A stretch of 64,000 bases of DNA from Escherichia phage vB_EcoA_4HA11. The notes under the pieces were generated by a model, which had not been told where the DNA came from, ran no database searches, and was given only the letters and a program-made list of their open reading frames with translations. The position numbers and the translations under genes are program-made. Numbering within the stretch: position 1 is the first letter of the stretch; each line of letters starts with the position of its first letter. The DNA lies in the sequence record MN445184, one strand, 5' to 3'. This document shows, piece after piece, positions 1 to 49,356 of this stretch.

Positions 1-2757
1 ATGAAAATGCGCAAGTCCGAGCACTTTATCCGCTCGTCGTCTTCCATTCAGGGGCAGGCGTTCAACGTTAAAATGAACGATAAGATGTTTGAGACTCTGT
101 TCTCATCTTTGTATCGTTACAAAGAGGCTGCAGCCCTGCGCGAAACCGTCTGTAACGCCATCGACTCCCATGGCATGCGTGATCGTATGCACCGTATGGT
201 AGCATCCCACTACGCGCCTCTCACTCCCCCTCCACAGCGCCATAGTAAGTTCCTGGCACCGAAGGGTACACCAGTCATCGTCCATCTGCCTGACGACTTT
301 GAACCATGGCTGGAAATCCGTGATTACGGTATCGGCCTGCCACTTGAGAAGATCATTGGCGAGCCTATCCCAGCGCAGGAAGATGAAGTGCTGCTGGAAG
401 GCAACATGGTGGTCAAGGAAGATGAGATCCCTGACTCAGCTGAGGTCATCGGCGTTCCTGCGTTCTACAATGGGTCTTTAGTGTTCCGTCGCGAAGATGG
501 TGAAATCATTCGTACGCCTGGGTTGTATACCACTCTCTTCCACAGTACGAAGGAAGAAGATGATGATCAGATTGGGGCATTCGGTCTTGGCTCCAAATCA
601 CCATTTGCGGTATCGGATTCGTTCACTGTGGAAAGCCGCATGGACGGTAAACTCCATCGCTTCCTGATGTACCTGAACGCCAAGCGCATCCCGACTGTTG
701 ATCTGATCACCAAAGATCTTGAAACCCGTGATCCTAAGCCGGAAGACACCGATGAGTTCAACGGCATGACGGTGAAGATCCCGGTGAAGAACGCTCGTTT
801 CTCTGCATTCTCCGATGAGCTGGTTCGCCTTGGTCGAGTCATGCGCCCTGAGCAACGTCCAATTGTTGAGAACGCTTCATACCGCTTCAGCTGGGAAGAT
901 ATCAGTTATGAATTCAAGGTCAACAACACGTACATCCAGCCGAAAGGCCAGGGGAACACCCATTATGCTGTAATGGGTGGCGTGTCGTACCCGATTGACC
1001 TGGACCAGCTGGACCCGGACACTGCTTCCATCATGAGCAAGTTTCCATCGTCCTATACGTTCTTCGAACTTGGCTCGCTGAACGTACCACCGTCGCGTGA
1101 AGACCTTTCATATGACGAATTCACGCGTGAGACGCTCTCTGAGGAGTTTAAGGGCACCGCCAATGCAATCTTGACAGAAAAGATGCGTGACCTGGAGCTG
1201 GCGTGTAAGCGTGGTCCTCTTGCCCTGTATATGGAGAAGGTAAAACTGAGTGAAATGTTCGGCAGTGGGTTCCGCAAGATGGTTGAAAAGGAATACCCGG
1301 CTGATAAGCGCTTTCATGATTCATATTACCGTTACCCGCTGCCTATTGAGATCGACCGTGACTATGACCACACCGCACCGTTCAATGAATTGTCATCGCC
1401 GTTCTCTATGGAGATCTTCTATGATTGGGGTGAGTCCAGTAATTTGACCATTTCAGAAATCCAGAAGTGGATTGATCGCGGTCAGCATGTTACTGTGGTG
1501 ATCGAAGATAGTGTTCGTGCTCGTAACCTGAAGATCAAGCAGCTGAAAGATACAGGGACGATAGTCATCGTGGCCAAGCCGAACACATCCTATGTCACCA
1601 AGCGCAACCAATCTAAGGACAACCCTGCGTTCAAGAATTCTCAGGCTCTCTATGATTTCTTTGAAACTTGGATTGGTAAAGAAGAAACGACGGTTGATTA
1701 TCTGTGCTTCGCCGACAAGTTCGTCGATTGGCTGAGTGCGGTGCTGGAGCCTGCTGAAGTTAAGTTAATGAACGAACTGGCGTATGTCACGCCCCCGGTC
1801 ACCAAAGACCCTGGTCTGTTTCCGTTCACGCGCAGCAACTTCGACATATACCAGTATGAAGAACTGACGGGCGACCAGATCTCAGATATCATCAACAAGG
1901 GCGAGCGCATCGTCTATATTGAGGTGTCTGGCCATGCGTGTATCCATCAGGTGATGGACAGAACGTTGACGACTGCGGCGGCGCGGGGTATTCGTAAATC
2001 TCTGTATGAGCACGCAGTCAGTGTCGACGATGAAGGCAAGCCAGTGTATATCAGCGATATGTTGAACGTTCACAACCGAATCTTCTTGGCTCGTCGTAAA
2101 TCCGTTCCAATGATGAAGAAGTTCCCAGAGGTCTTCATACCGATCGATGAAATCCTGAAGATCATGTTGGAAAACGTGAAGCCTATGATGGAACGCGATA
2201 GCGCCAGACGCATACTGGAATCATACCACCGCATGCGCCTTGGGGCGGATCGATTAAAATACGGGAGCCATCTGGTTCATCAGGCGTTTGGTGATGTTGA
2301 AGACGATCGTTATGGCAAATTGGTCAGTCGTTACAACAAGTTAATGAAAGTCGTGGACGATATCTTGGATGAGCAGACTGTACGTCATTACCAAAGCCTG
2401 GCGAAAGCCCCGGTTTCAATCAATGACAAGCGTCGATTTAGCCATTTCCAGGACACAATACATTCTCTTAACGTGAATTTGTACGCCAACGAGCGTGACG
2501 AAAAGATCTTCCGTTCAGAACATCAGATGCTACAGATCTTTGAATGCGCTTCGGATGTGTTGCGGTCTCATGGATTTACACCGTTTGATATATCGAGGAC
2601 TCCGTCATTGAAAGCAAGGCGGGAAAACCGATTGACCATCGAGCGTCATCGTGTTGTCCGGTTCTTGAAAGAGAATTACAAACCAAGCGCCCTGAACCCG
2701 ATTGAAAATTCTTCGGATTACTTGGACGTTATTTCAAATTCCATTATCAGGGCATAA
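1..2757 (+). CDS. rIIA: rIIA-like membrane-associated GHKL-type ATPase (may begin upstream of window)
   Basis: 918-aa ORF starting at base 1; Bergerat-fold motifs in translation: RETVCNAIDS (E..N..D), EIRDYGIGL (DxGxG), GAFGLGSKSPF (GxxGxG); followed directly by rIIB-like gene. Confidence 0.6.
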   Translation: MKMRKSEHFIRSSSSIQGQAFNVKMNDKMFETLFSSLYRYKEAAALRETVCNAIDSHGMRDRMHRMVASHYAPLTPPPQRHSKFLAPKGTPVIVHLPDDFEPWLEIRDYGIGLPLEKIIGEPIPAQEDEVLLEGNMVVKEDEIPDSAEVIGVPAFYNGSLVFRREDGEIIRTPGLYTTLFHSTKEEDDDQIGAFGLGSKSPFAVSDSFTVESRMDGKLHRFLMYLNAKRIPTVDLITKDLETRDPKPEDTDEFNGMTVKIPVKNARFSAFSDELVRLGRVMRPEQRPIVENASYRFSWEDISYEFKVNNTYIQPKGQGNTHYAVMGGVSYPIDLDQLDPDTASIMSKFPSSYTFFELGSLNVPPSREDLSYDEFTRETLSEEFKGTANAILTEKMRDLELACKRGPLALYMEKVKLSEMFGSGFRKMVEKEYPADKRFHDSYYRYPLPIEIDRDYDHTAPFNELSSPFSMEIFYDWGESSNLTISEIQKWIDRGQHVTVVIEDSVRARNLKIKQLKDTGTIVIVAKPNTSYVTKRNQSKDNPAFKNSQALYDFFETWIGKEETTVDYLCFADKFVDWLSAVLEPAEVKLMNELAYVTPPVTKDPGLFPFTRSNFDIYQYEELTGDQISDIINKGERIVYIEVSGHACIHQVMDRTLTTAAARGIRKSLYEHAVSVDDEGKPVYISDMLNVHNRIFLARRKSVPMMKKFPEVFIPIDEILKIMLENVKPMMERDSARRILESYHRMRLGADRLKYGSHLVHQAFGDVEDDRYGKLVSRYNKLMKVVDDILDEQTVRHYQSLAKAPVSINDKRRFSHFQDTIHSLNVNLYANERDEKIFRSEHQMLQIFECASDVLRSHGFTPFDISRTPSLKARRENRLTIERHRVVRFLKENYKPSALNPIENSSDYLDVISNSIIRA

Positions 2758-6449: not shown

Positions 6450-6450
6450 A

Positions 6451-6471: not shown

Positions 6472-6494
6472 ATTTCCAGCATTTGGTGTATAAT
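6466..6494 (+). promoter_or_regulatory. candidate sigma70-type promoter (TTTTCA-N16-TATAAT)
   Basis: TATAAT at about 6489-6494 with weak -35; about 45 nt upstream of ATG 6538. Confidence 0.3.
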
Positions 6495-6537
6495 GGAACC
6501 GTTCCCCATGAGCGGAACCTAACTGAGGATACACCAA

Positions 6538-7038: not shown

Positions 7039-7083
7039 ATAGTTACAGGGGAGGAAACTCCCCGCTTCAACCAGGAGGCGCAT

Positions 7084-7281: not shown

Positions 7282-7308
7282 TTTCACTACACACAGCAAT
7301 ACTTTGAT

Positions 7309-8390: not shown

Positions 8391-8565
8391 AATACGAAAT
8401 CATCTTAGACGCTCTCTGTATGAGAGCAATATTGTTTAATGTTGAAAGAAACCGGGTTAAGCTCTGTGTGTTCTAAGGCCACAGCTCAAACTTGTATATC
8501 TAAATTTCAGGAATGTTGGATACCAAAAGAAGATCCCGCCTGGTTGAAATTTTACGGAGATAATA

Positions 8566-10910: not shown

Positions 10911-10911
10911 G

Positions 10912-12243: not shown

Positions 12244-12247
12244 CATC

Positions 12248-12265
12248 GGAGGGGTTCGCCCCTCC
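12248..12265 (+). terminator. stable stem-loop GGAGGGG-UUCG-CCCCTCC after topoisomerase gene (terminator or RNA-stability element; no U-tract)
   Basis: perfect 7-bp stem with UUCG tetraloop 4 nt after stop. Confidence 0.35.
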
Positions 12266-12567
12266 TCACCTGGAGGGTTGTGCTATGTTCTATCTCCGTT
12301 CTGAAGCACCTATGGTATTCATCATTTCCTATTTGATTTCCTGGTTCCTCGCTTTATCAAAGAAGAGGTAGCGTTTGGTCTCTATGGTGAGACGGAAGAC
12401 CCAGAGGTCGATGAGTATTACCCAATGTGCGCCCTGAAAGATATCGAGGAAGGGGAAGATGTTGCAATGGTCGGCACCATGCGTTCTTTCAATCTGTTTG
12501 GGCTTGCACTCTTTCCGAAACTGGTTGGTGAACTGCGCCCCTACAATCCTGAAGCCGCTGTAGAGGG

Positions 12568-12885
12568 TTGATCATGCCACAGCTTCTGAGTCCTAAACTT
12601 CTGTCTATGGGTGATTCCCTGTATTTTCACTGCCCTGGATGTGATATACTTCACCCATATCGCATTAAGGGCGAAGTCCAAGGTCCGGCGTGGTCGTGGA
12701 ACAACAATGTCGTTGCTCCTACGTTCACGCCGAGCCTGCTGGTGAATGCATCTGATCTAGCATCACGTTGCCATCTGTTCCTGACCGACGGCAAAATACA
12801 ATTCCTCGGCGACTGTTTCCATGATCTGAAGAACCAGACAGTGGATATGGTCGACATCTCTGAACCTGAAATTTGGATTGAATAG
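12568..12885 (+). CDS. small Cys/His-containing protein (zinc-binding?)
   Basis: 105-aa ORF with HCPGC and CH/H pairs. Confidence 0.45.
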   Translation: MIMPQLLSPKLLSMGDSLYFHCPGCDILHPYRIKGEVQGPAWSWNNNVVAPTFTPSLLVNASDLASRCHLFLTDGKIQFLGDCFHDLKNQTVDMVDISEPEIWIE

Positions 12886-12888
12886 ATT

Positions 12889-13299
12889 ATGAAATTACTT
12901 GGATATTTTCGTGAACTCCCAACGGGAACTGAAGGCAAGTTGTTCTCACAGGTGAAGGGGGATGACATCGGTGATACGATGATTCCCCTGTACACTCGTG
13001 AACTTCCTGCCGAAGGTGCCTGGGAGCGCCGTGTGGTCGCTGCCGCCAACAAATATGGTGACGTGATCGTCGTTGCCGACCGCCACCATAGCAAATTCAT
13101 GAACAGCCAGCTCAAGATCCTGAAAGAAGCAGGCGTCATTAAATCCACCCATACCCGCGAACAGGGTTTCATCGACAACCAGGGCAACTTCCTCACTCGT
13201 GAAGAGGCATGCATCGTAGCCCGTGAAGCTGGACAGATCAATCAGGTGCGCCTGAAGACAACCCCTTTCCGCGAACTCTTTTCCGAAGACCTCTATTGA
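12889..13299 (+). CDS. hypothetical protein
   Basis: 136-aa ORF, 4 nt after previous stop. Confidence 0.5.
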   Translation: MKLLGYFRELPTGTEGKLFSQVKGDDIGDTMIPLYTRELPAEGAWERRVVAAANKYGDVIVVADRHHSKFMNSQLKILKEAGVIKSTHTREQGFIDNQGNFLTREEACIVAREAGQINQVRLKTTPFRELFSEDLY

Positions 13300-13349
13300 A
13301 GAAAAAGGCGGTATTATTACCGCCTCGACCTCTTGTTTGGTAACATCGA

Positions 13350-13592
13350 ATGAGCCCAGAATTTGAAAACCTGTTCGAGCGATGCTTCGAACCAGGTTCT
13401 GTGTCCGGTTACATGGACCGCCTTTGCACTGCCATTGTAATACGCCTTGCTGCCAAGGGTATCGTTGTCAACACCATTATCCGCAATGGGAACAACTTTA
13501 TCATGCAGATGACTGATTATCACCGCCGCACAGGCATCATCCAGGTGTCATGTGTTGACAACAGCATTATTGAATGGAGACAGTACGCATGA
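13350..13592 (+). CDS. hypothetical protein
   Basis: 80-aa ORF. Confidence 0.4.
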   Translation: MSPEFENLFERCFEPGSVSGYMDRLCTAIVIRLAAKGIVVNTIIRNGNNFIMQMTDYHRRTGIIQVSCVDNSIIEWRQYA

Positions 13593-14188
13593 CAACCTAT
13601 GTAATCAATGGCGGCGATTTACTGAAAGCCGCCTGTAGTTTCAATCTGATCGACATCTTTGCCCACGGTGCCAACTGTTGGTCTACCATGGGCGCGGGTA
13701 TTGCCCTGCACATCGGCAACAACTTCCCAGCGCTGCGCGAAGTCGATGCGAACGACCCTCGTGGTCCAGAGCAACGCCTGGGTGGCATGTCCTATGCATT
13801 TGACCACAGCACTGGTGTCTGGGGTGCGAACCTCTACACTCAGTTTTATCCAGGTCCGAACGCTCGCATGCCGTCTGTCATCAGTTCTGTTCAGATGTTG
13901 TTTGAGCAGGTTCACGAAATTGTGGAAGCAACTAAAGACGAAACTGTCTATGTCGGACTGCCTGCTATCGGCTGTGGTATTGGTGGTCTGAACCTCTACA
14001 GTGTAGTGCGCCATATCAATCGAATCTCTGAAAGCGTGTATGAAGAGACCCGCCGTCGTGTCGTCCCAGTCTTCTATATCAGGGAAGGAGACGGATTCGA
14101 TGATGATCTGATGGAACTTTCCCATCTGGACACAGAAGGTATCATGATTGTCGAAGATGAGCAAGAAATCATCGACGAGGAGGGGTGA
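13589..14188 (+). CDS. macro domain protein (ADP-ribose binding/hydrolase fold)
   Basis: ATG 13589 with GGAGA RBS; motifs AHGANCWSTMGAGIALHI and GLPAIGCGIGGL match macro-domain glycine-rich loops; acidic C-tail. Confidence 0.55.
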   Translation: MTTYVINGGDLLKAACSFNLIDIFAHGANCWSTMGAGIALHIGNNFPALREVDANDPRGPEQRLGGMSYAFDHSTGVWGANLYTQFYPGPNARMPSVISSVQMLFEQVHEIVEATKDETVYVGLPAIGCGIGGLNLYSVVRHINRISESVYEETRRRVVPVFYIREGDGFDDDLMELSHLDTEGIMIVEDEQEIIDEEG

Positions 14189-14191
14189 ATA

Positions 14192-14443
14192 ATGATGTGT
14201 GCGTTTGATCAAGAATTTTATAAAAAGGTCAATATTCTAAAACTTGTCATGTCTGGATCTAGTTCGAAAGAAGTATCAGAAATTTATTGTATTTCACAGG
14301 CCAGGGTGAGCCAGATTTTGAGGGAAACTATAGGGTTACTTTGCCCAGAGATAGAAATTAAGCGCGTCAACAAAAAGTTCATTGATGAAAATTATTATAC
14401 AGTAAAAGCCAAAATAAAGTGTTGGGAGAATAAACATGTATAA
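14192..14443 (+). CDS. small HTH DNA-binding protein
   Basis: 83-aa ORF; SSKEVSEIYCISQARVSQILRE helix-turn-helix. Confidence 0.5.
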   Translation: MMCAFDQEFYKKVNILKLVMSGSSSKEVSEIYCISQARVSQILRETIGLLCPEIEIKRVNKKFIDENYYTVKAKIKCWENKHV

Positions 14444-15068
14444 ATCAAATTTTTTGGCTGTGGCCGACAGTGAAACCTTGGGGCGCTGGGATGATGCAGT
14501 CATGCTGTCTTGGGCACACACCATCGCTGACCTGACCAAGCGTTATACTCTTCAGCAGCTGGTTGAGGAGCGCACGACGTTCATTAAGCTGAATGTCAAA
14601 GAGCAGCTCGAACTTGGTCGCGTGAAGGACGCTGGGACGGTAGAATGGTGGTTGGGGGCGGGCAAGCGCAACCCGTGTGATGCGGCTCGCGCCGTCAGTC
14701 TGTACCCGACTGAGCAGGACATCTCTATCTTCCAGCTGGCCGATGAAATCCGCAAGGGTTGTCATCGTCTTGGGGTAGACCCGCGCTCGGTTGACTGGTG
14801 TGATCGCAACCTGTTTGATCTGCGCAAGGCTCAGCACATCATTGAGGTGACGTGTAAGCAGGACTCCAACGAGCCTTGGGATTACCACCACACCTTCGAC
14901 ATCGTGAGCTGGCTGAAGGGTGTTGGGCAACAGGATCGCTACGCTGGTATCAAGGCGTGGGAACTGGAAGGTATGGTCTATCACGACCCTCGTTATGACG
15001 CTGCGCTTGACTGGCTGCGTATTCAGAAGACCATGGAAGATCTGATGGGGCTGGAGGTTGTGGGGTGA
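14436..15068 (+). CDS. DEDD-family 3'-5' exonuclease (DexA-like)
   Basis: FLAVADSETLG (Exo I D-x-E) and C-terminal YHDPRYD motif. Confidence 0.5.
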   Translation: MYKSNFLAVADSETLGRWDDAVMLSWAHTIADLTKRYTLQQLVEERTTFIKLNVKEQLELGRVKDAGTVEWWLGAGKRNPCDAARAVSLYPTEQDISIFQLADEIRKGCHRLGVDPRSVDWCDRNLFDLRKAQHIIEVTCKQDSNEPWDYHHTFDIVSWLKGVGQQDRYAGIKAWELEGMVYHDPRYDAALDWLRIQKTMEDLMGLEVVG

Positions 15069-15367
15069 TTGTATTCACTGTCATCGGTGTGATCGTAACA
15101 GCTGGGGTATTCACAGCCATATTGGGCTACCTGTACTTCATGTTCCTTCATCCGTTATTTCAGGCGTTCAGTCTCACGAATTGGTACTTGGCCTGCCTAA
15201 AGGCCGACGGCGGCGTGAACATGGCCTCTCTTCCTTACTGGCGGCTGGTGGCGCATTACTACTCGGTCGGTGGCTGGCCTGGGGAAAGGACATGGAACTC
15301 TATCGGTGAGTGGTATGGAATAGGTCGATGGCGTATATTCCCTGATGAAGACGATCAAGCCCCGTGA
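15065..15367 (+). CDS. membrane protein
   Basis: 100-aa ORF with N-terminal transmembrane helices. Confidence 0.45.
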   Translation: MIVFTVIGVIVTAGVFTAILGYLYFMFLHPLFQAFSLTNWYLACLKADGGVNMASLPYWRLVAHYYSVGGWPGERTWNSIGEWYGIGRWRIFPDEDDQAP

Positions 15368-15378
15368 GGGCTTTTCTA
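15357..15378 (+). terminator. hairpin AAGCCCCGTGAGGGCTT + TTTC overlapping stop
   Basis: inverted repeat followed by T-run. Confidence 0.5.
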
Positions 15379-15430
15379 TATCCGGGATAGAGTATCATTG
15401 GTTCACCAACGAATCCTCGGGAGAGGCGAT

Positions 15431-15772
15431 ATGAAACGTTCAGTTGTTGTAAATGACATCACGAGATTGATAAACCTTGTCAAAGATGTGTTTCCACAAC
15501 AGGTGGATGTCGAGTATGTTGGGAAGAACGGAAAGTGTTATCAGGTTGCTCTGTTGTTGAAGCACGTGTACCCCCAAGCAGAGATCCATTACAGTCAGAT
15601 TGAAGGCCATGTGTATACTCTGATTGATGGGAATTATTACGACATCGACGGCATCCACTTCAGTGTCCCACCAGACACGTGTTTGCTCGAACATAATAGA
15701 GGCCACAAACCCCATCGCTGGCATAAAGGGTTTGTGAACGTACCGATTTTAGAATGGCTGAGGAAACCATAA
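15431..15772 (+). CDS. hypothetical protein
   Basis: internal ATG 15431 after GGGAGAGG RBS. Confidence 0.45.
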
Positions 15773-16332
15773 TGGCCGGAATTGTAAAGTACCTGGGTGA
15801 CACCCACCTCGGACACAAGAAGATCTTCAAGCCCCGTGGGTTCGACACACAGGAAGCCCACGACGCTGCGGTCATCGACAGTATCTTTCAGGGGCTGAAG
15901 TCTCGAGACGTCCTTGAACTGGCTGGGGACATCTGCTTCATCGGGGCTGAGGGGTTCATTCGCCTGATGCGGGAGGGTGCCAAGCGAAACATTGATGAGT
16001 TTAAGCGACGCCCCGTTCCCGATGACTGGCGTCCGAACTTTATCATCAAGGTGGCACAAGGCAACCATGACAGCTTTAAGATGTTGTTGTCTCTGTATCT
16101 GGACGGCTGGATTAGCTCCTTCGGCGCTATGTATGAACGTGACACGCCTGTTGGCCGTGTGTTGACAACACATGTTCCTTATCAATTAGACCGTTGGGCG
16201 TATAATATCCATGGTCATCTTCACGAAAATATTCGCGAAGAGCGCGAATACCTGAACTGCAGTTGGGAACAATTCAAGCGTCCTGTAACCCTGGCTGAGT
16301 TATTATACACAAATTTAGGAATTGTGTTATGA
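15772..16332 (+). CDS. calcineurin-like metallophosphoesterase
   Basis: GDTHLG, GNHD and HGHLH motifs; ATG 15772 after GAGGAA. Confidence 0.6.
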
Positions 16333-28705: not shown

Positions 28706-28821
28706 TAACGTTTCCTCTTAAATGGGATGATCAGGGCTATGATTAACAGCATAGCTGTGATCACTCCGCATGCGATAAGACCGAATGCAAATGCTTTCAA
28801 AACAAATTGTAAAAGAATCAT
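28705..28821 (-). CDS. unlisted 38-aa single-pass membrane peptide (MILLQFVLKAFAFGLIACGVITAMLLIIALIIPFKRKR)
   Basis: read by eye; GAGGAA RBS; start overlaps upstream stop (ATGA) and stop overlaps downstream ATG (TAATG); below 60-aa ORF cutoff. Confidence 0.4.
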   Translation of the reverse strand: MILLQFVLKAFAFGLIACGVITAMLLIIALIIPFKRKR

Positions 28822-30011
28822 AATTTCCTCAGTTTTGCCCTTGTAATCTGAGTTTGTTTAATACCTTTGAATTCGGTCAATTCTTTGACACGACCTCGAA
28901 TGATCATATCGCCTTCTAAAAACTCGGTTTCCATATAGGAAGTCTTCCATGTAATGGTATTGCCTTCCTTGGTTTTGAAAGTATACAGATACGTGTCACC
29001 ATAATCAGATGAATACAGGAAAATCCTTGCTTCAAATTTGACCTGTGCTTCTAACATTTCACCAACTTCACCAACCCAATTTGATACAGTGCGCGTTTGG
29101 CGGGGGGTGTGGATATAATCATAATACTTTGCTGCTCCCCAACGAACTGTTGTTGAGTCTTTAACAAGGTGATAACCAGGTTCGCACATACGTTTCAGCC
29201 GGACGTTGAAATCGTTATTTTCAGACAACGATGCGATGAAAAGCATCATATGATACATCTCTGATTGAGCATCTTCACGGGCTTTAACAGCCTTGTTATA
29301 GAATATATCAATGTCAGAACCTTTCTCCGGACGAGTACCGCTAGAGATATGACCAAGAACTCGACCAAAATCATCACTTTTAATGCTCAGGCCGGACAGC
29401 AAAACCTGAAAGCATTTACACAAATATCCTTCCGTGTCAACATAATCTGGTTCATTAACCCGATAAATTCCTTCTGGGTCATCTTCATCGGGGGTAAACA
29501 TTTCGTGAATAGACATGTAATAAGACATAACCGCATCAAGGGATTTCTGATGCGGGACATAATGATGCATACAGCTGCTACCCACGAGCATCTGTGCGCC
29601 AGATTGTTCGTTACGAACGACATATGTGTTATGACGACGCACAGATTTGTTGCAATGCTCGCACCAAGATACGTTTTCAGCTTCAAATCTTTGAACGAAA
29701 TTTGGGTGGATGTCATCTGACAGTTTATTCAGAATGACTTTTGGATACTGGTGGTTGAATTGTCCAATGATACTCCACCCACCATAAGAAACGGGGCGGT
29801 CGATGCCTTCACCAGTTAGAGTACAATCTTGCCACCAACGATAAAATTTTTCGCCAGTGATAGAATCGCGGTGTTGTGTTTTGTATGGTTCACTGAACTC
29901 AACAAGAGGGAACTCGAGTTTCAGGCGGTTTGCCGTTCTTTCAAGTTTGGCAAGACGTTCCTTGACACGACCAATGTTATCAATTGGGATGCTGAAGGTC
30001 TTGGCTTTCAT
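28818..30011 (-). CDS. hypothetical protein with Cys/His cluster
   Basis: 397 aa; WCEHCNKSVRRHN..SSCMHHYVPH. Confidence 0.5.
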   Translation of the reverse strand: MKAKTFSIPIDNIGRVKERLAKLERTANRLKLEFPLVEFSEPYKTQHRDSITGEKFYRWWQDCTLTGEGIDRPVSYGGWSIIGQFNHQYPKVILNKLSDDIHPNFVQRFEAENVSWCEHCNKSVRRHNTYVVRNEQSGAQMLVGSSCMHHYVPHQKSLDAVMSYYMSIHEMFTPDEDDPEGIYRVNEPDYVDTEGYLCKCFQVLLSGLSIKSDDFGRVLGHISSGTRPEKGSDIDIFYNKAVKAREDAQSEMYHMMLFIASLSENNDFNVRLKRMCEPGYHLVKDSTTVRWGAAKYYDYIHTPRQTRTVSNWVGEVGEMLEAQVKFEARIFLYSSDYGDTYLYTFKTKEGNTITWKTSYMETEFLEGDMIIRGRVKELTEFKGIKQTQITRAKLRKL

Positions 30012-30054: not shown

Positions 30055-30100
30055 ATGATAGCCGCAAGTTTTATTGAAGTAAAGTTTTATTGAAGTAAAG
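30055..30100 (-). promoter_or_regulatory. early-type promoter with duplicated -35 box (2x CTTTAC) and TATCAT -10
   Basis: minus strand reads CTTTACTTCAATAAAA twice, then -10 about 18 nt downstream. Confidence 0.4.
30067..30098. repeat. perfect 16-bp tandem repeat x2 (AGTTTTATTGAAGTAA)
   Basis: direct inspection; lies between a hairpin (30097-30120) and the -10 element. Confidence 0.8.
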
Positions 30101-30128: not shown

Positions 30129-30431
30129 TTATTCATCCGTGCGATCAGGCGCGGCGTTAGGATACAGCGACTCATAAAGATCTTGGTATTTGGCGCTGGT
30201 CTCGATGGTCTTGGTATAAGTTCCACCAGCGCGATCGGTAACGACTTTGCGCAGATCAACGGCTTTGATGCCTGTTTCTTTTGCCAATTCAGCCAGGGCT
30301 TCGGTAACAAAGGTCTGTTCAGACTTGATACGGATCTGGGCGGCACGACAATTTTCTAAAGTCTGCATCATCTTTTGACGCAGTTTTGGATCAGAAGGGA
30401 GTTGATAAAAACCAATTTGTTCAACTGACAT
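30129..30431 (-). CDS. hypothetical protein
   Basis: 100-aa ORF; hairpin 30097-30120 downstream as terminator. Confidence 0.45.
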   Translation of the reverse strand: MSVEQIGFYQLPSDPKLRQKMMQTLENCRAAQIRIKSEQTFVTEALAELAKETGIKAVDLRKVVTDRAGGTYTKTIETSAKYQDLYESLYPNAAPDRTDE

Positions 30432-30839: not shown

Positions 30840-32192
30840 TTAACCGAAATTCCAATTATTCACGGTCTCGGCTTTCTTGACATCATTTACGTCGCCTGTT
30901 TTGTTTAAGTCATGTTTGATATGAACATTCTCAACATAACGGGCTTCCTCTTCTGTCAGGTCTCGCTTGACTTCATTCCAATCCAAGTCAAACAATATCT
31001 GTTTATCTTGATCCATACCGAACAAGAACGATTTGAGTTTCTGTTTATTGGCATAACGGTTTTTCAAGATAGACGCTCGGGCTTTCTTAACAGCCGCCAG
31101 TTCATCAGGGGCATAGAACGCCATGATGAAGTCTGCAACCTTCGGAATACCGATAGCATCTGCCAGGTCGCTAATATCACCATCAGTCGCCGATTGTTTT
31201 TCACGGTTAAATTGCATACCTGTCCATACAGGGCAATCAAATTCAAATCCAAGCGCACGGAATTCACGCGCCACCGACGTATAATACACGTTGGTGTTCT
31301 GCATTAAATGGGCAGGAAGGCGAGAAGACGCTGATTCACCCAAGTAGTCTATAATAATGACGTCCGGCGTAATTCCCGTGGATGTCGCGTAATCAAGGAT
31401 ATCGCGGCGATACAGTCCTGTATGCCCAGCGCCTGAAGGATATTCCTTGATAACAATATCACCCTTCATGGAACCGTCTTGACGGGTTCGCAACTTTTGT
31501 ATCGTAGCGACATATTCATGTCGTGAGAGCTTCTCTAAGGACTCGAAGTCCCTGCGCATCATACGGGCATCAAGGCGGTGACGCCAGACGTTCTCAGCCA
31601 CTTCTAGGGTAAATACGAATACGTTCAACCCTTGCTCGGAGTAACCAGCAGCCAAATCAATCAGAGTTGTTGTCTTACCCGCATTAATTGCACCCGTCAC
31701 GATGTTCAGCGTTTTCTTACCAACACCACCACGAGTCGCTTTGTTGAATATCTCTACAGCGAAAGGAATCTTCGCTTCATTAGAGTTCATGTGGTCGTAT
31801 TGTTGTTCAGCCATTTCCCAATAGATATGGCCAAGATAAGAATCAAAACTTATCGCCAACGCCTCTTGTAGGAGAGTTGGAATCGTGTTCATCTCATCTT
31901 TACGTTTCTCATCACCATAGATGTTGACGGCGTGTTTGATCGCATTATGAACAGCTTTCTGCCGCGCCCAACTTTCTGTTTCTTTTACAAGCCATTCCTG
32001 ATGGAATGTGTTGTCATTGATATTCTCAAGAGCAGAAATAGCTTGTTCAAATACGTGTTCGTTGAGCGAAGTCTTTTCCAGCATAATAGACAACGCTTCA
32101 ACCGAAGGACGAGCATTATATTCGCAAGTGTAATGGTCAATGAGACCGAATATAATTTTCTCGCCTTCGTTATCGAAATAATCGGCTTTCAA
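30840..32192 (-). CDS. DnaB-like replicative helicase gp41, main body (N-terminus displaced by tandem duplication)
   Basis: Walker A GAINAGKTT; ORF begins at a non-ATG codon inside the duplicated segment. Confidence 0.8.
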   Translation of the reverse strand: MKADYFDNEGEKIIFGLIDHYTCEYNARPSVEALSIMLEKTSLNEHVFEQAISALENINDNTFHQEWLVKETESWARQKAVHNAIKHAVNIYGDEKRKDEMNTIPTLLQEALAISFDSYLGHIYWEMAEQQYDHMNSNEAKIPFAVEIFNKATRGGVGKKTLNIVTGAINAGKTTTLIDLAAGYSEQGLNVFVFTLEVAENVWRHRLDARMMRRDFESLEKLSRHEYVATIQKLRTRQDGSMKGDIVIKEYPSGAGHTGLYRRDILDYATSTGITPDVIIIDYLGESASSRLPAHLMQNTNVYYTSVAREFRALGFEFDCPVWTGMQFNREKQSATDGDISDLADAIGIPKVADFIMAFYAPDELAAVKKARASILKNRYANKQKLKSFLFGMDQDKQILFDLDWNEVKRDLTEEEARYVENVHIKHDLNKTGDVNDVKKAETVNNWNFG

Positions 32193-32201
32193 ATACGGCT
32201 G
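31885..32201. repeat. 317-bp direct repeat, copy 1 (inside helicase gene)
   Basis: identical to 32202..32518 by inspection. Confidence 0.8.
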
Positions 32202-32587
32202 GTGTTCATCTCATCTTTACGTTTCTCATCACCATAGATGTTGACGGCGTGTTTGATCGCATTATGAACAGCTTTCTGCCGCGCCCAACTTTCTGTTTCT
32301 TTTACAAGCCATTCCTGATGGAATGTGTTGTCATTGATATTCTCAAGAGCAGAAATAGCTTGTTCAAATACGTGTTCGTTGAGCGAAGTCTTTTCCAGCA
32401 TAATAGACAACGCTTCAACCGAAGGACGAGCATTATATTCGCAAGTGTAATGGTCAATGAGACCGAATATAATTTTCTCGCCTTCGTTATCGAAATAATC
32501 GGCTTTCAAATACGGCTGGATCTTTCTTTGATATTCTTCGTTATAGATTAATTGGGAAAGCACGACAGATTCGAGTAACATTGGCAA
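32189..32587 (-). pseudogene. gp41 helicase N-terminal fragment (true start plus first copy of duplicated segment, ends 3 codons after junction)
   Basis: residues KADYFDN..KDEMNT identical to start of main ORF, then SRI-stop. Confidence 0.7.
32202..32518. repeat. 317-bp direct repeat, copy 2 (perfect tandem)
   Basis: identical to 31885..32201; period not a multiple of 3. Confidence 0.8.
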
Positions 32588-32917
32588 CTACCCCACCAAA
32601 ATTTTGTTGTAATCCTGAGCATTTTGCTGTATCAGATCAACTAAGATATCCCCAGACACCACAGTGAACAAGTCATTTTCTTTCAAATTAACAAATAACA
32701 AACGCCATGGTTTCTTCAATATATCTGTTGTAAAGGATAACCGAGGCTCTCCATTATCTAAATGGACACCCACTTTCCCTATACGAAATTGAACACCGCG
32801 GAACTTGCCTTCCGTTATTTCGATAATAGCTAACTGATCAGAACCAGGGTCGATGATTTTGTAATTAACGGGGGAGTCTCCTCCCCCTGCAATATTACTC
32901 GGTTGTTTTGATGACAT
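32588..32917 (-). CDS. hypothetical protein (occupies the gene-40 position between gp41 and uvsX)
   Basis: 109-aa ORF; assignment by position only. Confidence 0.35.
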   Translation of the reverse strand: MSSKQPSNIAGGGDSPVNYKIIDPGSDQLAIIEITEGKFRGVQFRIGKVGVHLDNGEPRLSFTTDILKKPWRLLFVNLKENDLFTVVSGDILVDLIQQNAQDYNKILVG

Positions 32918-33980: not shown

Positions 33981-34495
33981 TTCGTTTCCTCTTGCTTGTT
34001 GATCGTAATTAATAAATCGGTGCCCAAGACTTTCTTGGACAATATATTGATTGCTTCGTGAATCGCCATTATTGACGGGAGTTTTTCATCGTTAATTTCG
34101 GAACCCCCGCGTTCTGTTAAATACATATTACGCAGACGATTGTGCTGTGCCCTGTTGACACAAGAAACATTCAATGCGATATTCAGGATATACATCATTT
34201 GTTCAGTTGTAACATCCTTTGGAATAGCATGAACATAATATATCGCATCTTCAAAATAGATATGCTGCAATGACTCTGGAATTTCTTCCCCGCCAAAAGC
34301 AAAATCTTCAATGCGTTTAAAAAGTGTTTCCGGCTCTGGTGTTGTAATATGTTGTGTTACAGTAGCCGCACCATTTGGCCCTTTCTTGAAATTGGTCGCA
34401 ATAACGACATGACCGCCTGGTTTAATAAACTCAGCGAAGTTCTCTGCCATGTACGGGGCATGTTCCGCATAATATGATACGACGACTGTAAACAT
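33965..34495 (-). CDS. hypothetical protein (occupies position of T4 beta-glucosyltransferase; no glycosyltransferase motif seen)
   Basis: 176-aa ORF; FIKPGGHVVIA motif of unclear significance. Confidence 0.4.
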   Translation of the reverse strand: MFTVVVSYYAEHAPYMAENFAEFIKPGGHVVIATNFKKGPNGAATVTQHITTPEPETLFKRIEDFAFGGEEIPESLQHIYFEDAIYYVHAIPKDVTTEQMMYILNIALNVSCVNRAQHNRLRNMYLTERGGSEINDEKLPSIMAIHEAINILSKKVLGTDLLITINKQEETKWPIH

Positions 34496-35040
34496 TAGAA
34501 CTCCAGAGTCAGAGGGGTTTCGGCAGACTTGTCATAGTTCGCACCGCCAGCAGCACGTAGACGATTGCGATCGTTCTTGCGCTTGTGCGCCAGCATGTAG
34601 GTTTCGGCATCCAGTCCCAAATAACCACAAGCATACGCAAGGAAAGCAGCCAGCACATTGCGCTCTGGATGAGACATAAAATGCGTAAACAGATTTGTCA
34701 CATGGAGGAAATCTGGCTTTCTCTGAATAGGTTGGTCAGACACATAACCCGTCATGTCGTACATATCATGCGGCTCTGCTTCTTTTTGTATAACGGCACA
34801 CAGCATGAAGTGGACAACATCGACCAATTCATAGACTGCATTAACTTGGTGCCATTGCTGATCATTTCCATAGATCTTCCAACTGGTCGAAACTTCATCA
34901 AGAAATTCCGCCCACTCGCGGTAGATGGAATTCGCCACCGCTACATCGGTCCAATACTTCTTCCACTCTTCCCCAAAATAGGCCACGTTGGTGGCCTTTT
35001 GAAGTTCGAGCAGATTTTTGATATGCTCTGCTGTGATCAT
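34495..35040 (-). CDS. all-alpha (MazG-like) dNTP pyrophosphatase, gp56 dCTPase/dUTPase-like
   Basis: 181 aa; helical, acidic metal-binding-like segments and C-terminal KRKNDRNRLR pattern similar to recalled T4 gp56. Confidence 0.45.
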   Translation of the reverse strand: MITAEHIKNLLELQKATNVAYFGEEWKKYWTDVAVANSIYREWAEFLDEVSTSWKIYGNDQQWHQVNAVYELVDVVHFMLCAVIQKEAEPHDMYDMTGYVSDQPIQRKPDFLHVTNLFTHFMSHPERNVLAAFLAYACGYLGLDAETYMLAHKRKNDRNRLRAAGGANYDKSAETPLTLEF

Positions 35041-39623: not shown

Positions 39624-40328
39624 CTAACCATTTTTGTGTTTACGACGTGCGTCCTTCCAAACAGACATCTGACTCTGTTTCTGGAATCGAGCAGTACGCA
39701 TAAACAAAACGACCTCCCAATATTGCGGTTCAATTTCATAAAGTTGTGAACGAAATTGATCTGCGCGGTATAATTTGACACAATGATTGTACAAAGGGTG
39801 ATTCGCAAACCGCTTTAGCGCATCCCAGGTAAGTCTCAAACGTGTTTTAGAACGATATGCCCGTTCATTTCTCAATTTAATGAGATCTTCAAATACCAAC
39901 AATCTGAGTTTAGGCGGTAAATAATGGAGGTTTAGGCCATAAAGATAGGTCACACCACGTTCACCGAATTTCACCCCGTCCCCCTTCACAAAATTGAAGA
40001 AGAACACCAGAGGATACATATCCCAATACGGGAGTTCATCTTTAGTCAGCGCATCATATTTGAAATAATACATGCGACCAACAATATAACGCACACCCTG
40101 AACAGGACGTTTATTTTCAGCGAATGCTTTCATCATGTGATTCGGAGATAAGTTAGCATCTTTCGACACGCGCTCCATAAACCACACATGAGAACGACGG
40201 ATATTACGCTTCGCTTCCGGCCCAAAATGTTGACGATATTTGCGGATGTAACGCTTGACCAGTTCTGGGGCGTCCATCTCGGCGGGAAGCAACAACGGGT
40301 CTTCTTCACCCATAGCGTTCTTAGCCAT
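39624..40328 (-). CDS. hypothetical protein
   Basis: 234-aa basic/aromatic-rich ORF. Confidence 0.45.
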   Translation of the reverse strand: MAKNAMGEEDPLLLPAEMDAPELVKRYIRKYRQHFGPEAKRNIRRSHVWFMERVSKDANLSPNHMMKAFAENKRPVQGVRYIVGRMYYFKYDALTKDELPYWDMYPLVFFFNFVKGDGVKFGERGVTYLYGLNLHYLPPKLRLLVFEDLIKLRNERAYRSKTRLRLTWDALKRFANHPLYNHCVKLYRADQFRSQLYEIEPQYWEVVLFMRTARFQKQSQMSVWKDARRKHKNG

Positions 40329-46483: not shown

Positions 46484-48109
46484 ATGGGTTTCAATATGTT
46501 AGACAACTTGCGTTGGTTTTACGGGCGCGTTGAAGACGTGAATGATCCCGATCAAAACGGGCGCGTCGCAGTACGCATCTATGGGGTACACACGGAGGAT
46601 ACCACTCTCCTGCCTACAGAATTATTGCCTTGGGGTAAAATGCTTATGCCAGCATCTAACGCCTCCTCGGCAGGTTTAGGCTGGTCTCCGACGGGTATCA
46701 CTGTCGGCTCTGACGTTATGGGGTTTGCTTTGGATGAAGCATATCAGAACATCCGTATTGCATGGGTATGGCCAGCAGCAACACCAACAGATGGGTCAGA
46801 TACAAACCCATTGGCGCTGGGTCAGGTCGTTCAATCTATAGAAAGACAGAAGTATAATGCCGTCGAGAATGTTCCTGTTAAGATTGAGGATGAACCACAA
46901 CCGGATCCACAACCACCAGTAGACGGATATGATCCTGAGAAGTGGATGACCGTGGCTCGTGGGGAATTGGGTGTCAAAGAATATTCTGGTAAGTTCAATA
47001 ACAACCCAAGGATATTGGAATATCATAAGACAACTTCCCTGGGGGCGTCAGAAGATGAAGTTAGTTGGTGTGCGTCGTTTGTCGGATGGGTTCTGATACA
47101 GGCCGGATATACATCAACACGTTCTGCTTTGGCTCGTTCATATTTACAATGGGGGTCTCCTCTGTCAGAACCACGTTACGGCGCTGTTGTAGTGTTCCGG
47201 CGCGGGAACAACCCGACATTCGGTCACGTTGCATTCGTTCAGAAATTTGACGCCAACTACGTTTGGTGTATCGGGGGAAACCAATCCGATTCTGTGAAGG
47301 TGAGCCGTTTTAGCCGCTCATCCGTGTTGGGTTATCGTTGGCCAGGTCCAGCAACTACAGCTTCAGCAGCTCCGGCACAACAAAACGGTAAATGGTCTGA
47401 ACCTATTCCAGATCGTACCCCGAAAGTCCAAGAAACACCGCCTCCTTCTGGTCGTGTTCAGGATATTGACAACACAGGAGAGGTATCGGTTCCTTCGGCT
47501 GGAGGGTCTCGTTATCCATACAACAATGTTATGGCTTCTCGAGCTGGGCATATTATGGAGGTCGATGACACTCCAGGCGGGGAACGTTTGCATTGGATGC
47601 ACTCTTCTGGGTCTTACAAGCAAATGCTTCCTGACGGTGATGTTGTTAATAAATCAGTCAAAGATCATTATGACCTGACGATGTTCGACAAACGTTATTA
47701 TGTGGGGGGTGATCATAACCTGACAATTGGTGGGACTGAAGTACAGCGCAAGAAAGGAGAAGTTTACCACTTACACTCTTCTAACTATTCCAATGTGGTC
47801 GCTGGAACAGCGTTGATGAAATTTTCCCAATTGGCTGAGATACAGGCACAGAACGTGTTGCGTCTCATCTGTGAAATGTTGGAAGTTTCCAATACTTTGA
47901 AAGTGCCTAAAATACTGGCTAGTGAAATAGTTTGTGATAAGTTGTCGGTGGCGCAGACTATTGAAGGCAACATCAAATATGCTGAAGGCGCTGGCCGCGC
48001 CGCCTCACGTGCGGGGGCAACTCCTGTAACAACTACAGGCCCAGGTCCAATTGATATAAAACCGGAGTTAGAGGATAACGGCGGCAATTTTGGTGGTAAA
48101 GGCGCATGA
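46484..48109 (+). CDS. gp5-like baseplate central spike with NlpC/P60-CHAP-like peptidase domain
   Basis: N-terminal VNDPDQNGRVAVRIYGVH (gp5 OB-domain-like); central WCASFVGWV and GHVAFV (Cys/His peptidase motifs); Gly-rich C-terminus. Confidence 0.6.
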   Translation: MGFNMLDNLRWFYGRVEDVNDPDQNGRVAVRIYGVHTEDTTLLPTELLPWGKMLMPASNASSAGLGWSPTGITVGSDVMGFALDEAYQNIRIAWVWPAATPTDGSDTNPLALGQVVQSIERQKYNAVENVPVKIEDEPQPDPQPPVDGYDPEKWMTVARGELGVKEYSGKFNNNPRILEYHKTTSLGASEDEVSWCASFVGWVLIQAGYTSTRSALARSYLQWGSPLSEPRYGAVVVFRRGNNPTFGHVAFVQKFDANYVWCIGGNQSDSVKVSRFSRSSVLGYRWPGPATTASAAPAQQNGKWSEPIPDRTPKVQETPPPSGRVQDIDNTGEVSVPSAGGSRYPYNNVMASRAGHIMEVDDTPGGERLHWMHSSGSYKQMLPDGDVVNKSVKDHYDLTMFDKRYYVGGDHNLTIGGTEVQRKKGEVYHLHSSNYSNVVAGTALMKFSQLAEIQAQNVLRLICEMLEVSNTLKVPKILASEIVCDKLSVAQTIEGNIKYAEGAGRAASRAGATPVTTTGPGPIDIKPELEDNGGNFGGKGA

Positions 48110-48173
48110 TTACACTGGTGAGGGCAGATAATGCCCTCTCGTGCTGGAGAGGCAATATCCAAAGGGGTTTAAC

Positions 48174-48554
48174 ATGAAAGAGTACAAGGACATTGACCTG
48201 AAGTTTGGCATGCATCCGGTCACCAAAGATGTCACTAAGAAAACAGGCATTTATGCTGTACTACAATCTGTGCGTAATATAGTGATGGCGACGGTAGGTG
48301 ATTGGCCGACGTATCCGAGTATTGGGGCGGGGTTGTATACCATGCTGGGAGAAAATACAAATCCCACGATACAGGTCGACGTGAAGAACAAAGTTGAAGA
48401 TGCCATTGCTCTTTTTGAGCCAAGAGCTGAATTGCAATCTGTTGATGTATCATTGTCGGACGATTATCATTCTCTGGGCGTAACCATCACGTTCTATGTG
48501 GTCAACAACCCAGAGCCGATAACAGACACCATATGGTTGAAACGGACAAATTGA
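48174..48554 (+). CDS. gp25-like baseplate wedge protein
   Basis: ATG 48174 after AAGGGG; size and pattern of gp25/lysozyme-like baseplate protein. Confidence 0.55.
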   Translation: MKEYKDIDLKFGMHPVTKDVTKKTGIYAVLQSVRNIVMATVGDWPTYPSIGAGLYTMLGENTNPTIQVDVKNKVEDAIALFEPRAELQSVDVSLSDDYHSLGVTITFYVVNNPEPITDTIWLKRTN

Positions 48555-48893
48555 TTAAAGAACGTCCGTGGCAGAGCATTTTGTCACCAACTCAAAATGA
48601 GTTAATAAACGATATAATATTTTCCCACCCGTTCTGTGGACTATGGTGGTTGGTTTCAGATTAACCACCATACCGTCCAGATTACCTGTCAACACAAATG
48701 TCAGACGGATGCGTAAGACGTTGGTGCCTTCAGAACGCATTATTTGGCAGTCATGGCTATATCCTATTTGCTTTCCCTTTAGAACCAGAGGGATACGGAC
48801 ATTTTCCTTTAACAGAATATCCAAATTTTCAAATAATGGACCTTCCTTTTTGTGAACAGAGTACACTGTTTCTAATATCGGGAATTTGTACAT
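48555..48893 (-). CDS. hypothetical protein
   Basis: 112-aa ORF. Confidence 0.35.
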   Translation of the reverse strand: MYKFPILETVYSVHKKEGPLFENLDILLKENVRIPLVLKGKQIGYSHDCQIMRSEGTNVLRIRLTFVLTGNLDGMVVNLKPTTIVHRTGGKILYRLLTHFELVTKCSATDVL

Positions 48894-48894
48894 A

Positions 48895-49356
48895 TCACGG
48901 CACCAAAGTAATGACGATCATATTGAGTACTGTATCAACCGCGACACCAGAATCTTCTTCATGGATAGTTGATGCACGTAAATGAATGTCAGAAATATAA
49001 TTGTCTATATGCATCGACGTCAAATAAGGACGGTGTTGATACACAGGACGGTTGACCTGAACATATTCACGCAGAATGCTGAATGAAAAGTCTTCACATT
49101 GAGTGGTGTCAATGCGCAAAAATCTTTGAGCATGGCAGGTCTTTAACTCGGTCACTTTCCCCAAATAATGGAGGTCTCCGGATGAACCGATGCGGAACAT
49201 CACGTCTACTTCAGATTTGAAAATTTCGCGTTCAATAAGAGTCGCTGGTGCCCAACAAACTTCTTCCTTGTCTTCTGGGAATAACGTATCGATCACTTCA
49301 GGCAATTGGATGTAACCGAAGTTGTGACGAGGGTTGGTGAGTAATTTGTTGGACAT
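48895..49356 (-). CDS. hypothetical protein
   Basis: 153-aa ORF. Confidence 0.4.
   Translation of the reverse strand: MSNKLLTNPRHNFGYIQLPEVIDTLFPEDKEEVCWAPATLIEREIFKSEVDVMFRIGSSGDLHYLGKVTELKTCHAQRFLRIDTTQCEDFSFSILREYVQVNRPVYQHRPYLTSMHIDNYISDIHLRASTIHEEDSGVAVDTVLNMIVITLVP

What the first reader, a model, noticed from the sequence alone, without database searches (positions are those of the whole stretch)
30840..32587. Perfect 317-bp tandem duplication breaks the reading frame of the essential gp41 helicase gene
Bases about 31885-32201 are repeated exactly at about 32202-32518 inside the helicase gene. Because 317 is not a multiple of 3, the gene splits into a 132-aa N-terminal fragment (true start, ends SRI-stop three codons past the junction) and a 450-aa body that starts at a non-ATG codon; both contain the identical segment KADYFDN..KDEMNT. 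Removing one copy restores a single ORF of about 476 aa, matching the T4 gp41 size (475 aa). This is either an assembly artefact at a repeat or collapsed terminus, a defective subpopulation, or a real recent duplication that would need an unusual rescue mechanism.
Basis: seen in the sequence. Interest (0 to 1): 0.6.

Follow-up and report, generated by a model that had tools for sequence, protein, structure and literature searches.

The report
Duplicated contig overlap inside helicase gene
An exact 317-base back-to-back repeat splits the replicative helicase gene of this Kuttervirus-type phage genome, but it is most likely an untrimmed assembly overlap and not biology.

Summary
Window 31885-32201 is repeated exactly at 32202-32518 (period 317, 2.0 copies, 100% identity). 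It lies inside the minus-strand gp41/DnaB-like helicase gene. Because 317 is not a multiple of 3, the gene splits into a 130-aa N-terminal piece and a 450-aa body. Deleting one copy restores a 474-aa ORF that differs by one residue from phage PhaxI gp41.

The repeat junction is unique. It is absent from 50,697 phage records, and the 40 relatives listed carry one copy. It is also absent from IMG/VR, JGI metagenomes and GTDB genomes. No other gene annotated in the two reference phages is split in the 64 kb, and there is no other repeat of 40 nt or more.

Window base 1 is the rIIA ATG, the start used by several related records. The record was therefore probably rotated after assembly. Kutterviruses package by headful, so contig ends are arbitrary and assemblers emit overlapping ends. 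A related record (AV101) carries the label "Dupl_ends_SPAdes" inside a gene.

Best explanation (about 0.8): an untrimmed contig-end or contig-contig overlap made internal by rotation or stitching. A real duplication (about 0.15) cannot be excluded without reads. Interest is low.

In passing: window 1-16,000 is Agtrevirus-like (about 50% GC) and the rest is Kuttervirus (about 44% GC).

The parts
31885..32201 (-). Repeat copy 1 (the downstream copy in gene orientation). It covers codons Gln22 to the second base of Thr127 of the helicase N-terminal domain, here within the 450-aa body ORF.
   Evidence: exact 317-nt unit; the unit occurs exactly once in PhaxI, at 32775.
32202..32518 (-). Repeat copy 2 (the upstream copy in gene orientation), 100% identical to copy 1, within the N-terminal fragment ORF.
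32184..32215 (-). Novel junction, gene strand ...GATGAACAC|CAGCCGTATTTGA..., with the breakpoint between 32202 and 32201. There is 1 nt (C) of ambiguity or microhomology. Under the artefact model this is the point where contig end and contig start were concatenated.
   Evidence: one occurrence in the window; absent from IMG/VR, 50,697 phage records, JGI metagenomes and GTDB genomes; breakpoint contexts.
32189..32581 (-). N-terminal helicase fragment ORF: gp41 residues 1-127 plus Ser-Arg-Ile, 130 aa from the ATG (132 aa from the TTG at 32587).
   Evidence: weak DnaB N-terminal domain match. PhaxI annotates the equivalent ATG as the start.
30840..32192 (-). Helicase body ORF, 450 aa, equal to gp41 residues 25-474. 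Its nominal TTG start is the Leu25 codon and overlaps the TGA stop of the fragment ORF. It contains Walker A (GAINAGKT, restored residue 191) and the DnaB_C domain.
1..2757 (+). rIIA ORF starting at window base 1. This is the start used by several related records and suggests the genome was re-oriented after assembly.
   Evidence: ORF 1..2757, ATG. PhaxI, Ag3, RPN242, CECAV_050, YX22 and Gloob begin at the same position.

Best explanation
The duplication is most likely a finishing artefact. Phages of this group package DNA by headful, so their genomes are circularly permuted and the reads assemble into a circle. An assembler then emits a linear contig whose two ends repeat the same sequence, or emits two contigs that overlap. 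Here that overlap would be 317 nt and would happen to fall inside the helicase gene. The sequence was then rotated, or stitched against a reference, so that it begins at the rIIA start codon. The overlap was not trimmed, so old contig end and old contig start were joined head to tail at 32201|32202. That would produce an exact tandem duplication and an apparent frameshift. Under this model the real phage carries one copy and an intact 474-aa gp41-type helicase. Shown here: the exact duplication, its uniqueness, the restored ORF and the rIIA start. Inferred: the assembly history.
For: (1) The two copies are 100% identical, strictly tandem and exactly 2.0 copies. This is what an untrimmed overlap looks like. 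(2) Deleting one copy restores a 1425-nt ORF whose product differs from PhaxI gp41 at one residue (V459A), and the unit is found exactly once in PhaxI. (3) All 40 records listed span 317 nt (one record 318 nt) less than the query, so each holds one copy. A 40-nt query across the junction finds nothing in 50,697 phage records. The 32-mer junction is absent from IMG/VR, metagenomes and GTDB genomes. (4) The break hits a gene that is essential by homology with T4 gene 41 (one search gives the homology; essentiality is established T4 genetics). No other gene annotated in PhaxI or CECAV_050 is split in the window, and there is no other repeat of 40 nt or more. The anomaly is therefore one structural event and not general sequencing noise. 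(5) Window base 1 is the rIIA ATG, identical to the record start of PhaxI, Ag3, RPN242, CECAV_050, YX22 and Gloob. The sequence was probably re-oriented, and that is the step at which terminal overlaps become internal. (6) PhageTerm classed the Kutterviruses SeF3a and SeF6a as having redundant, random, permuted ends. In the same paper raw contig sizes exceed final sizes by exactly 77 nt for three Kutterviruses, consistent with trimmed assembler overlaps (PMC9409062). (7) The related AV101 record carries a misc_feature labelled 'Dupl_ends_SPAdes' (127 nt) inside a CDS far from the record ends. This is a documented case in the same family of duplicated contig ends ending up internal, there correctly reduced to one copy. 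(8) The Phage Annotation Guide lists contigs extended beyond 100% of genome length, duplicated regions, terminal repeats in the middle of sequences and chimeric genomes as common submission errors (PMC8785237).
Against: No reads are available, so the absence of junction-spanning reads is not shown. A length of 317 nt is not a standard de Bruijn k-mer overlap (55, 77 or 127). The model therefore needs an overlap-type or commercial assembler, a long-read assembler or manual contig stitching, and this is not verifiable. The source record could not be identified: exact products of the window are not on record. The assembly method is therefore unknown. The stop and start overlap at the junction (TTGA) gives a conceivable translational rescue, so lethality of a real duplication is not absolute.
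Confidence: 0.8

Rival explanations
1. The duplication is real but present only in part of the sequenced phage population. Defective genomes with a broken helicase gene would be complemented in trans by wild-type co-infecting phage in a high-titre lysate, and the assembler followed the looped path.
For: Exact identity of the copies fits a very recent event. T4-type phages are known to generate tandem duplications by illegitimate recombination (own knowledge of the T4 rII duplication literature). Sequence alone cannot exclude it.
Against: Only 1 nt of microhomology lies at the breakpoints. The junction has never been seen elsewhere. By inference, a 317-nt direct repeat in a phage encoding UvsX and gp46/47 should collapse readily by homologous recombination, and single-copy segregants would have a large growth advantage. 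Assemblers usually collapse tandem repeats of minority variants rather than expand them.
Confidence: 0.1
2. The duplication is real and fixed in a viable phage. The helicase would be made in two pieces. Ribosomes would terminate the 130-aa N-terminal fragment at TGA and reinitiate at the overlapping TTG (aTTTGAa), giving gp41 lacking residues 1-24, possibly assisted by the free N-terminal domain fragment.
For: The stop of the fragment ORF and the TTG of the body ORF overlap by 2 nt, a geometry used in translational coupling. The body retains residues 25-474, including the whole DnaB_C/RecA-like domain and Walker A.
Against: There is no Shine-Dalgarno-like sequence within 5-12 nt upstream of the TTG; the only purine-rich stretch, GATGAGATGA, lies about 14-23 nt upstream. 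TTG is a weak start. The arrangement is absent from the 40 relatives listed and from every collection scanned, so it is not a conserved design. The first helix of the N-terminal domain would be missing. The repeat should be recombinationally unstable.
Confidence: 0.04
3. The 317 nt are a physical direct terminal repeat of the virion DNA, placed side by side when the linear genome was circularised in silico.
For: A DTR-DTR tandem is the expected picture if a genome with terminal repeats is circularised without trimming. The Phage Annotation Guide notes terminal repeats appearing in the middle of sequences.
Against: PhageTerm finds random, redundant, permuted ends in Kutterviruses, so there are no fixed termini. 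The window encodes a T4-like gp2 DNA end protector homologue in the PhaxI-collinear region, which fits T4-style headful packaging. A fixed terminus inside the coding sequence of the replicative helicase would leave the gene split on the infecting DNA.
Confidence: 0.02

Closest known systems
Untrimmed duplicated contig ends of circular or circularly permuted phage assemblies (for example the 'Dupl_ends_SPAdes' feature in Escherichia phage AV101, OQ973471; errors described in the Phage Annotation Guide, PMC8785237)
   Same: The repeat is exact, tandem and two-copy, and it is absent from relatives. It sits at an arbitrary place (inside a gene) in a record re-oriented to a conventional start. The phage family has permuted genomes.
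   Different: The length is 317 nt and not a k-mer length (77 or 127). In AV101 the duplicate was reduced to one copy, whereas here both copies remain. The assembly history of this sequence is unknown.
T4 gp41 / DnaB-like replicative helicase (PDB 8dtp; Kuttervirus PhaxI gp41, ADQ55824.1)
   Same: After removal of one repeat copy the gene encodes 474 aa and is 473/474 identical to PhaxI gp41. It is homologous to T4 gp41 over nearly its whole length and has DnaB_C and Walker A. Its neighbourhood is collinear with PhaxI, where uvsX, the gp59 loader and gp61 primase are annotated.
   Different: As written in the window, the ORF is interrupted by a frameshift at codon 127.
Real tandem duplications in T4-type phages (classical rII-region duplications)
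   Same: Both are head-to-tail duplications with novel junctions in a T4-like replication and recombination background.
   Different: The classical cases were kilobases long and selected because they restored function. This one destroys an essential reading frame, has only 1 nt of junction homology and has no conceivable selective advantage (own knowledge).

Membership tests
T4 gp41 / DnaB-like replicative helicase | Full-length sequence homology to T4 gp41 | tested here: met
   restored protein against PDB 8dtp (475 aa), E=4e-76, residues 5-444 against 3-443.
T4 gp41 / DnaB-like replicative helicase | DnaB_C (RecA-like) domain with Walker A P-loop | tested here: met
   PF03796, 53.2 bits (cut-off 27), residues 179-409. 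GAINAGKT at residue 191.
T4 gp41 / DnaB-like replicative helicase | Single uninterrupted ORF of about 475 aa | tested here: not met
   the gene is split into 130/132-aa and 450-aa ORFs in the window as given. It is met only after one repeat copy is removed.
Assembly or finishing artefact (untrimmed contig overlap made internal by rotation or stitching) | Copies exactly identical, strictly adjacent, two copies only | tested here: met
Assembly or finishing artefact (untrimmed contig overlap made internal by rotation or stitching) | Junction and second copy absent from close relatives and from independent assemblies | tested here: met
   the 40 listed records each hold one copy; no junction match in 50,697 phage records; absent from IMG/VR, metagenomes and GTDB genomes.
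Assembly or finishing artefact (untrimmed contig overlap made internal by rotation or stitching) | Sequence re-oriented after assembly (starts at a conventional gene start) | tested here: met
   window base 1 is the rIIA ATG, which is base 1 of PhaxI, Ag3, RPN242, CECAV_050, YX22 and Gloob.
Assembly or finishing artefact (untrimmed contig overlap made internal by rotation or stitching) | Genome type that assembles as a circle (circularly permuted, headful packaging) | tested here: inconclusive
   This is shown for related Kutterviruses only (PhageTerm on SeF3a and SeF6a; PMC9409062), not for this phage.
Assembly or finishing artefact (untrimmed contig overlap made internal by rotation or stitching) | No sequencing read spans the duplication junction; coverage of the unit equals the flanks when one copy is removed | not testable with these tools
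   No read data are available.
Physical direct terminal repeat | Fixed genome termini bounding the repeat | tested here: not met
   Relatives have random, redundant, permuted ends. This was not tested on this phage's own reads.
Genuine tandem duplication by illegitimate recombination or slippage | Microhomology at the two parental breakpoints | tested here: inconclusive
   only 1 nt (C) is shared, which is expected by chance about 1 time in 4.
Genuine tandem duplication by illegitimate recombination or slippage | Junction present in virion DNA | not testable with these tools
   This needs reads or PCR.
Programmed split gene or translational coupling design | Arrangement conserved among relatives | tested here: not met
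   the relatives listed have a single intact ORF and no phage record contains the junction.

The most novel reading that the evidence does not exclude
The duplication is physically present in a viable phage that makes its replicative helicase from a broken gene. A free N-terminal-domain fragment (residues 1-127) would be made alongside a body lacking residues 1-24, the body produced by termination-reinitiation at the overlapping TGA/TTG (aTTTGAa). This would be a freshly born split gp41 caught before recombination collapses it.
Probability: 0.04. Interest if true: 0.55.

Novelty: not a real feature. Interest (0 to 1): 0.08.

Why it matters
If it is an artefact, as the evidence indicates, the practical points are these. 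The record is about 317 nt too long. Its helicase would be mis-annotated as two genes or as a pseudogene. It should be corrected by removing 32202-32518. It is also a warning to check the rest of this genome, including the Agtrevirus/Kuttervirus mosaic noted in passing. If the duplication were real, it would be a rare snapshot of a nascent duplication inside an essential replication gene and a natural test of whether gp41 tolerates loss of its first helix. The evidence gives that little support.

Tried and rejected
(1) I looked for the junction elsewhere. A 32-mer exact scan of IMG/VR, JGI metagenomes and GTDB genomes found nothing. A 40-nt megablast across the junction against 50,697 phage records also found nothing. 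A 120-nt query matched relatives only as two pieces 318 nt apart in the rows shown.

(2) I tried to identify the source record or independent assemblies through exact protein look-ups. The 130-aa, 132-aa and 450-aa gp41 pieces, rIIA and the topoisomerase large subunit are none of them on record.

(3) I tested whether the window is a generally error-ridden assembly. It is not. Apart from gp41, the ORFs flagged do not correspond to annotated genes, or they lie in divergent or indel patches. I therefore rejected homopolymer or long-read noise as the cause.

(4) I looked for other long repeats that could mark further unmerged contig joins. There are none of 40 nt or more in the 64 kb.

(5) I considered a physical terminal repeat and rejected it, because relatives have random permuted ends.

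(6) I considered slippage promoted by flanking direct repeats. Only 1 nt is shared at the breakpoints.

(7) I considered a conserved programmed frameshift or split gene and rejected it, because no relative has it.

(8) I examined whether the Agtrevirus-to-Kuttervirus switch at about 16 kb is an abrupt stitch. It is a roughly 700-nt zone of mixed alleles in a region about 90% conserved between the genera. This does not discriminate natural recombination from graph crossing in a mixed sample.

(9) The Ackermannviridae review contained nothing on termini.

Full report
OBSERVATION

Tandem Repeats Finder reports one large array in the window: 31885-32519, period 317, 2.0 copies, 100% matches, no indels, score 1270. 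The repeat finder gives the same pair. A direct string comparison shows 31885-32201 equals 32202-32518. The identity extends 0 nt to the left and 1 nt to the right. This is the only direct repeat of 40 nt or more in the 64 kb. The junction 32-mer occurs once, against 0 in 100 shuffles.

The repeat lies on the coding (minus) strand of one gene, and ORF listing shows two pieces:
- ORF 32587..32189 is 132 aa from TTG, or 130 aa from the ATG at 32581. It ends ...KDEMNT-SRI-stop.
- ORF 32192..30840 is 450 aa with a nominal TTG start.

Both pieces contain KADYFDN...KDEMNT.

WHAT THE GENE IS

Deleting one copy in silico gives a 1425-nt ORF of 474 aa. It differs from the annotated gp41 'DNA primase-helicase subunit' of Escherichia phage PhaxI at one residue (V459A). 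The 317-nt unit occurs exactly once in PhaxI.

The restored protein matches T4 gp41 (PDB 8dtp, 475 aa) at E=4e-76 over residues 5-444. It has a DnaB_C domain at residues 179-409 and a Walker A motif at residue 191. The duplicated segment runs from codon Gln22 to the second base of codon Thr127, which lies entirely in the N-terminal domain.

The window is collinear with PhaxI around this gene. PhaxI annotates uvsX, the gp59 helicase loader, DNA ligase, gp61 primase and gp46/47 in the matching region.

WHAT THE GENOME IS

From about 16 kb onward the window is 97-100% identical to Kuttervirus genomes such as PhaxI, Cba120 and SFP10 (Ackermannviridae). Window base 1 is the ATG of rIIA. That is also base 1 of the PhaxI, Ag3, RPN242, CECAV_050, YX22 and Gloob records. 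The window is therefore probably the first 64 kb of a genome record that was rotated to the start used by these relatives.

IS THE DUPLICATION SEEN ANYWHERE ELSE?

It is not.
- All 40 records listed span 317 nt less than the query (318 nt less for phages 38 and SP1), so each holds one copy.
- A 120-nt probe across the junction matches relatives only as two pieces 318 nt apart in the rows shown.
- A 40-nt probe, which can seed only on the junction itself, finds nothing in 50,697 phage records.
- Exact scans of IMG/VR, JGI metagenomes and GTDB genomes are empty.
- Exact protein look-ups for the gp41 pieces and for rIIA and the topoisomerase large subunit found no record, so the source assembly could not be traced.

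IS THE ASSEMBLY GENERALLY POOR?

It is not. I compared all stop-to-stop ORFs of PhaxI and of an Agtrevirus reference with those of the window. Apart from gp41, the flagged ORFs do not correspond to annotated genes, or they lie in divergent or indel patches. The defect is therefore one isolated structural event.

MOST LIKELY MECHANISM

PhageTerm classed the Kutterviruses SeF3a and SeF6a as having redundant, random, circularly permuted ends, which means headful packaging. In the same study the raw contigs of three Kutterviruses are exactly 77 nt longer than the final genomes. I read that as trimmed assembler overlaps (PMC9409062).

Such genomes assemble as circles, and the linear contig the assembler writes has the same sequence at both ends. 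The Phage Annotation Guide warns of contigs extended beyond 100% of genome length, duplicated regions, terminal repeats in the middle of sequences and chimeric genomes (PMC8785237).

The related AV101 record carries a feature labelled 'Dupl_ends_SPAdes' (127 nt). It lies inside a CDS far from the record ends and is now present in one copy. That documents, in this phage family, duplicated contig ends ending up internal to a record.

The simplest history for the window has three steps:
1. A contig began at what is now 32202 and ended at what is now 32201, with a 317-nt terminal overlap.
2. Alternatively, two contigs overlapped by 317 nt.
3. The sequence was cut at the rIIA ATG and re-joined without trimming.

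The exact identity, the strict adjacency, the two-copy number, the arbitrary position inside an essential gene and the single base of 'microhomology' (chance about 1 in 4) all fit this history. I put it at about 0.8.

Against it:
- 317 nt is not a standard k-mer overlap.
- The assembly method is unknown.
- No reads could be examined.

RIVALS

(a) A real duplication in a defective subpopulation that is complemented in trans (about 0.1). Sequence alone cannot exclude this. However, a 317-nt direct repeat in a phage with a UvsX/gp46/gp47 recombination system should collapse quickly, and single-copy segregants would outgrow it. This is inference from T4 biology.

(b) A real, fixed duplication in a viable phage (about 0.04). 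The junction happens to place the TGA stop of the N-terminal fragment over the TTG (Leu25) of the second copy (aTTTGAa). Termination-reinitiation could in principle yield gp41 lacking residues 1-24 plus a free N-terminal domain. Against this, there is no Shine-Dalgarno sequence at a useful distance, TTG is a weak start, and no relative has the arrangement.

(c) A physical direct terminal repeat (about 0.02). This is contradicted by the random ends of relatives and by its location inside a coding sequence.

COMPARISON WITH KNOWN THINGS

The gene belongs to the T4 gp41/DnaB-like helicase family once one copy is removed. The duplication matches the known class of untrimmed-overlap submission errors. 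It does not match the defining features of a terminal repeat or of a conserved split gene.

VERDICT

The feature is most likely not biological, so interest is low (0.08). The decisive test is read mapping or PCR across 31800-32600, which should give about 484 bp if artefact and about 801 bp if real.

SEEN IN PASSING

Window 1 to about 16,000 is 92-99% identical to Agtrevirus genomes (subfamily Aglimvirinae) and has about 50% GC. The rest is Kuttervirus (Cvivirinae) at about 44% GC. The switch lies in a zone at about 15.4-16.1 kb that is roughly 90% conserved between the genera.

No phage record in the collection matches the first 15.4 kb at 99% or better; the best listed are 95.4% and 93.7%. 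The Kuttervirus KE31 shares the 14.2-15.6 kb segment at 96-99%, so natural exchange in this area is plausible.

Even so, the record also contains an assembly-type duplication. A chimeric assembly of a mixed lysate should therefore be ruled out with reads.

Noticed in passing
window 1-16,100 versus 16,100-64,000: The window is an inter-subfamily mosaic. The first ~16 kb (rIIA, rIIB, topoisomerase II subunits, dexA) is 92-99% identical to Agtrevirus genomes (CECAV_050, AV101, RPN242, Ag3), only ~70-89% identical to Kuttervirus PhaxI, and ~50% GC. The rest is 97-100% Kuttervirus and ~44% GC. The switch is a ~700-nt zone (15,430-16,137) of mixed alleles in a region ~90% conserved between the genera. 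It is either a very recent natural Aglimvirinae/Cvivirinae recombinant or a chimeric assembly of a mixed lysate.
   Followed up: partly
L005 (Escherichia phage AV101, OQ973471) 39760-39886 = record 52469-52595: The GenBank record carries a misc_feature labelled 'Dupl_ends_SPAdes', 127 nt, inside a CDS. The sequence is present only once in the 42-kb stretch read. It is a leftover annotation of trimmed assembler-duplicated contig ends in a re-oriented Ackermannviridae genome.
   Followed up: yes
window 14,200-15,600; L004 (Salmonella phage vB_STmST313_KE31, PP856729): KE31 is a Kuttervirus, yet it shares this otherwise Agtrevirus-like segment with the window at 96-99% identity. This suggests natural exchange between the two genera around dexA.
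   Followed up: partly
window 30066-30100: A perfect 16-nt tandem repeat (AAGTTTTATTGAAGTA x2.2) lies in the intergenic gap between the 397-aa ORF (28818..30011, -) and the 100-aa ORF (30129..30431, -). It is conserved exactly in PhaxI and was not found in the Agtrevirus stretches fetched. It may be a regulatory site.
   Followed up: partly
window 34,001-35,000, 48,001-49,000 and 58,557-59,066: These are local patches where identity to PhaxI drops to ~76-88%, or where there is no megablast match, within otherwise 97-100% identical sequence. They look like small module replacements typical of Kuttervirus mosaicism.
   Followed up: no
PMC9409062, Appendix A versus Table 1 (not in the window): Raw contig sizes of three Kutterviruses exceed the final genome sizes by exactly 77 nt (157,296 to 157,219; 157,317 to 157,240; 157,887 to 157,810). 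This is consistent with routine trimming of k=77 duplicated contig ends.
   Followed up: no
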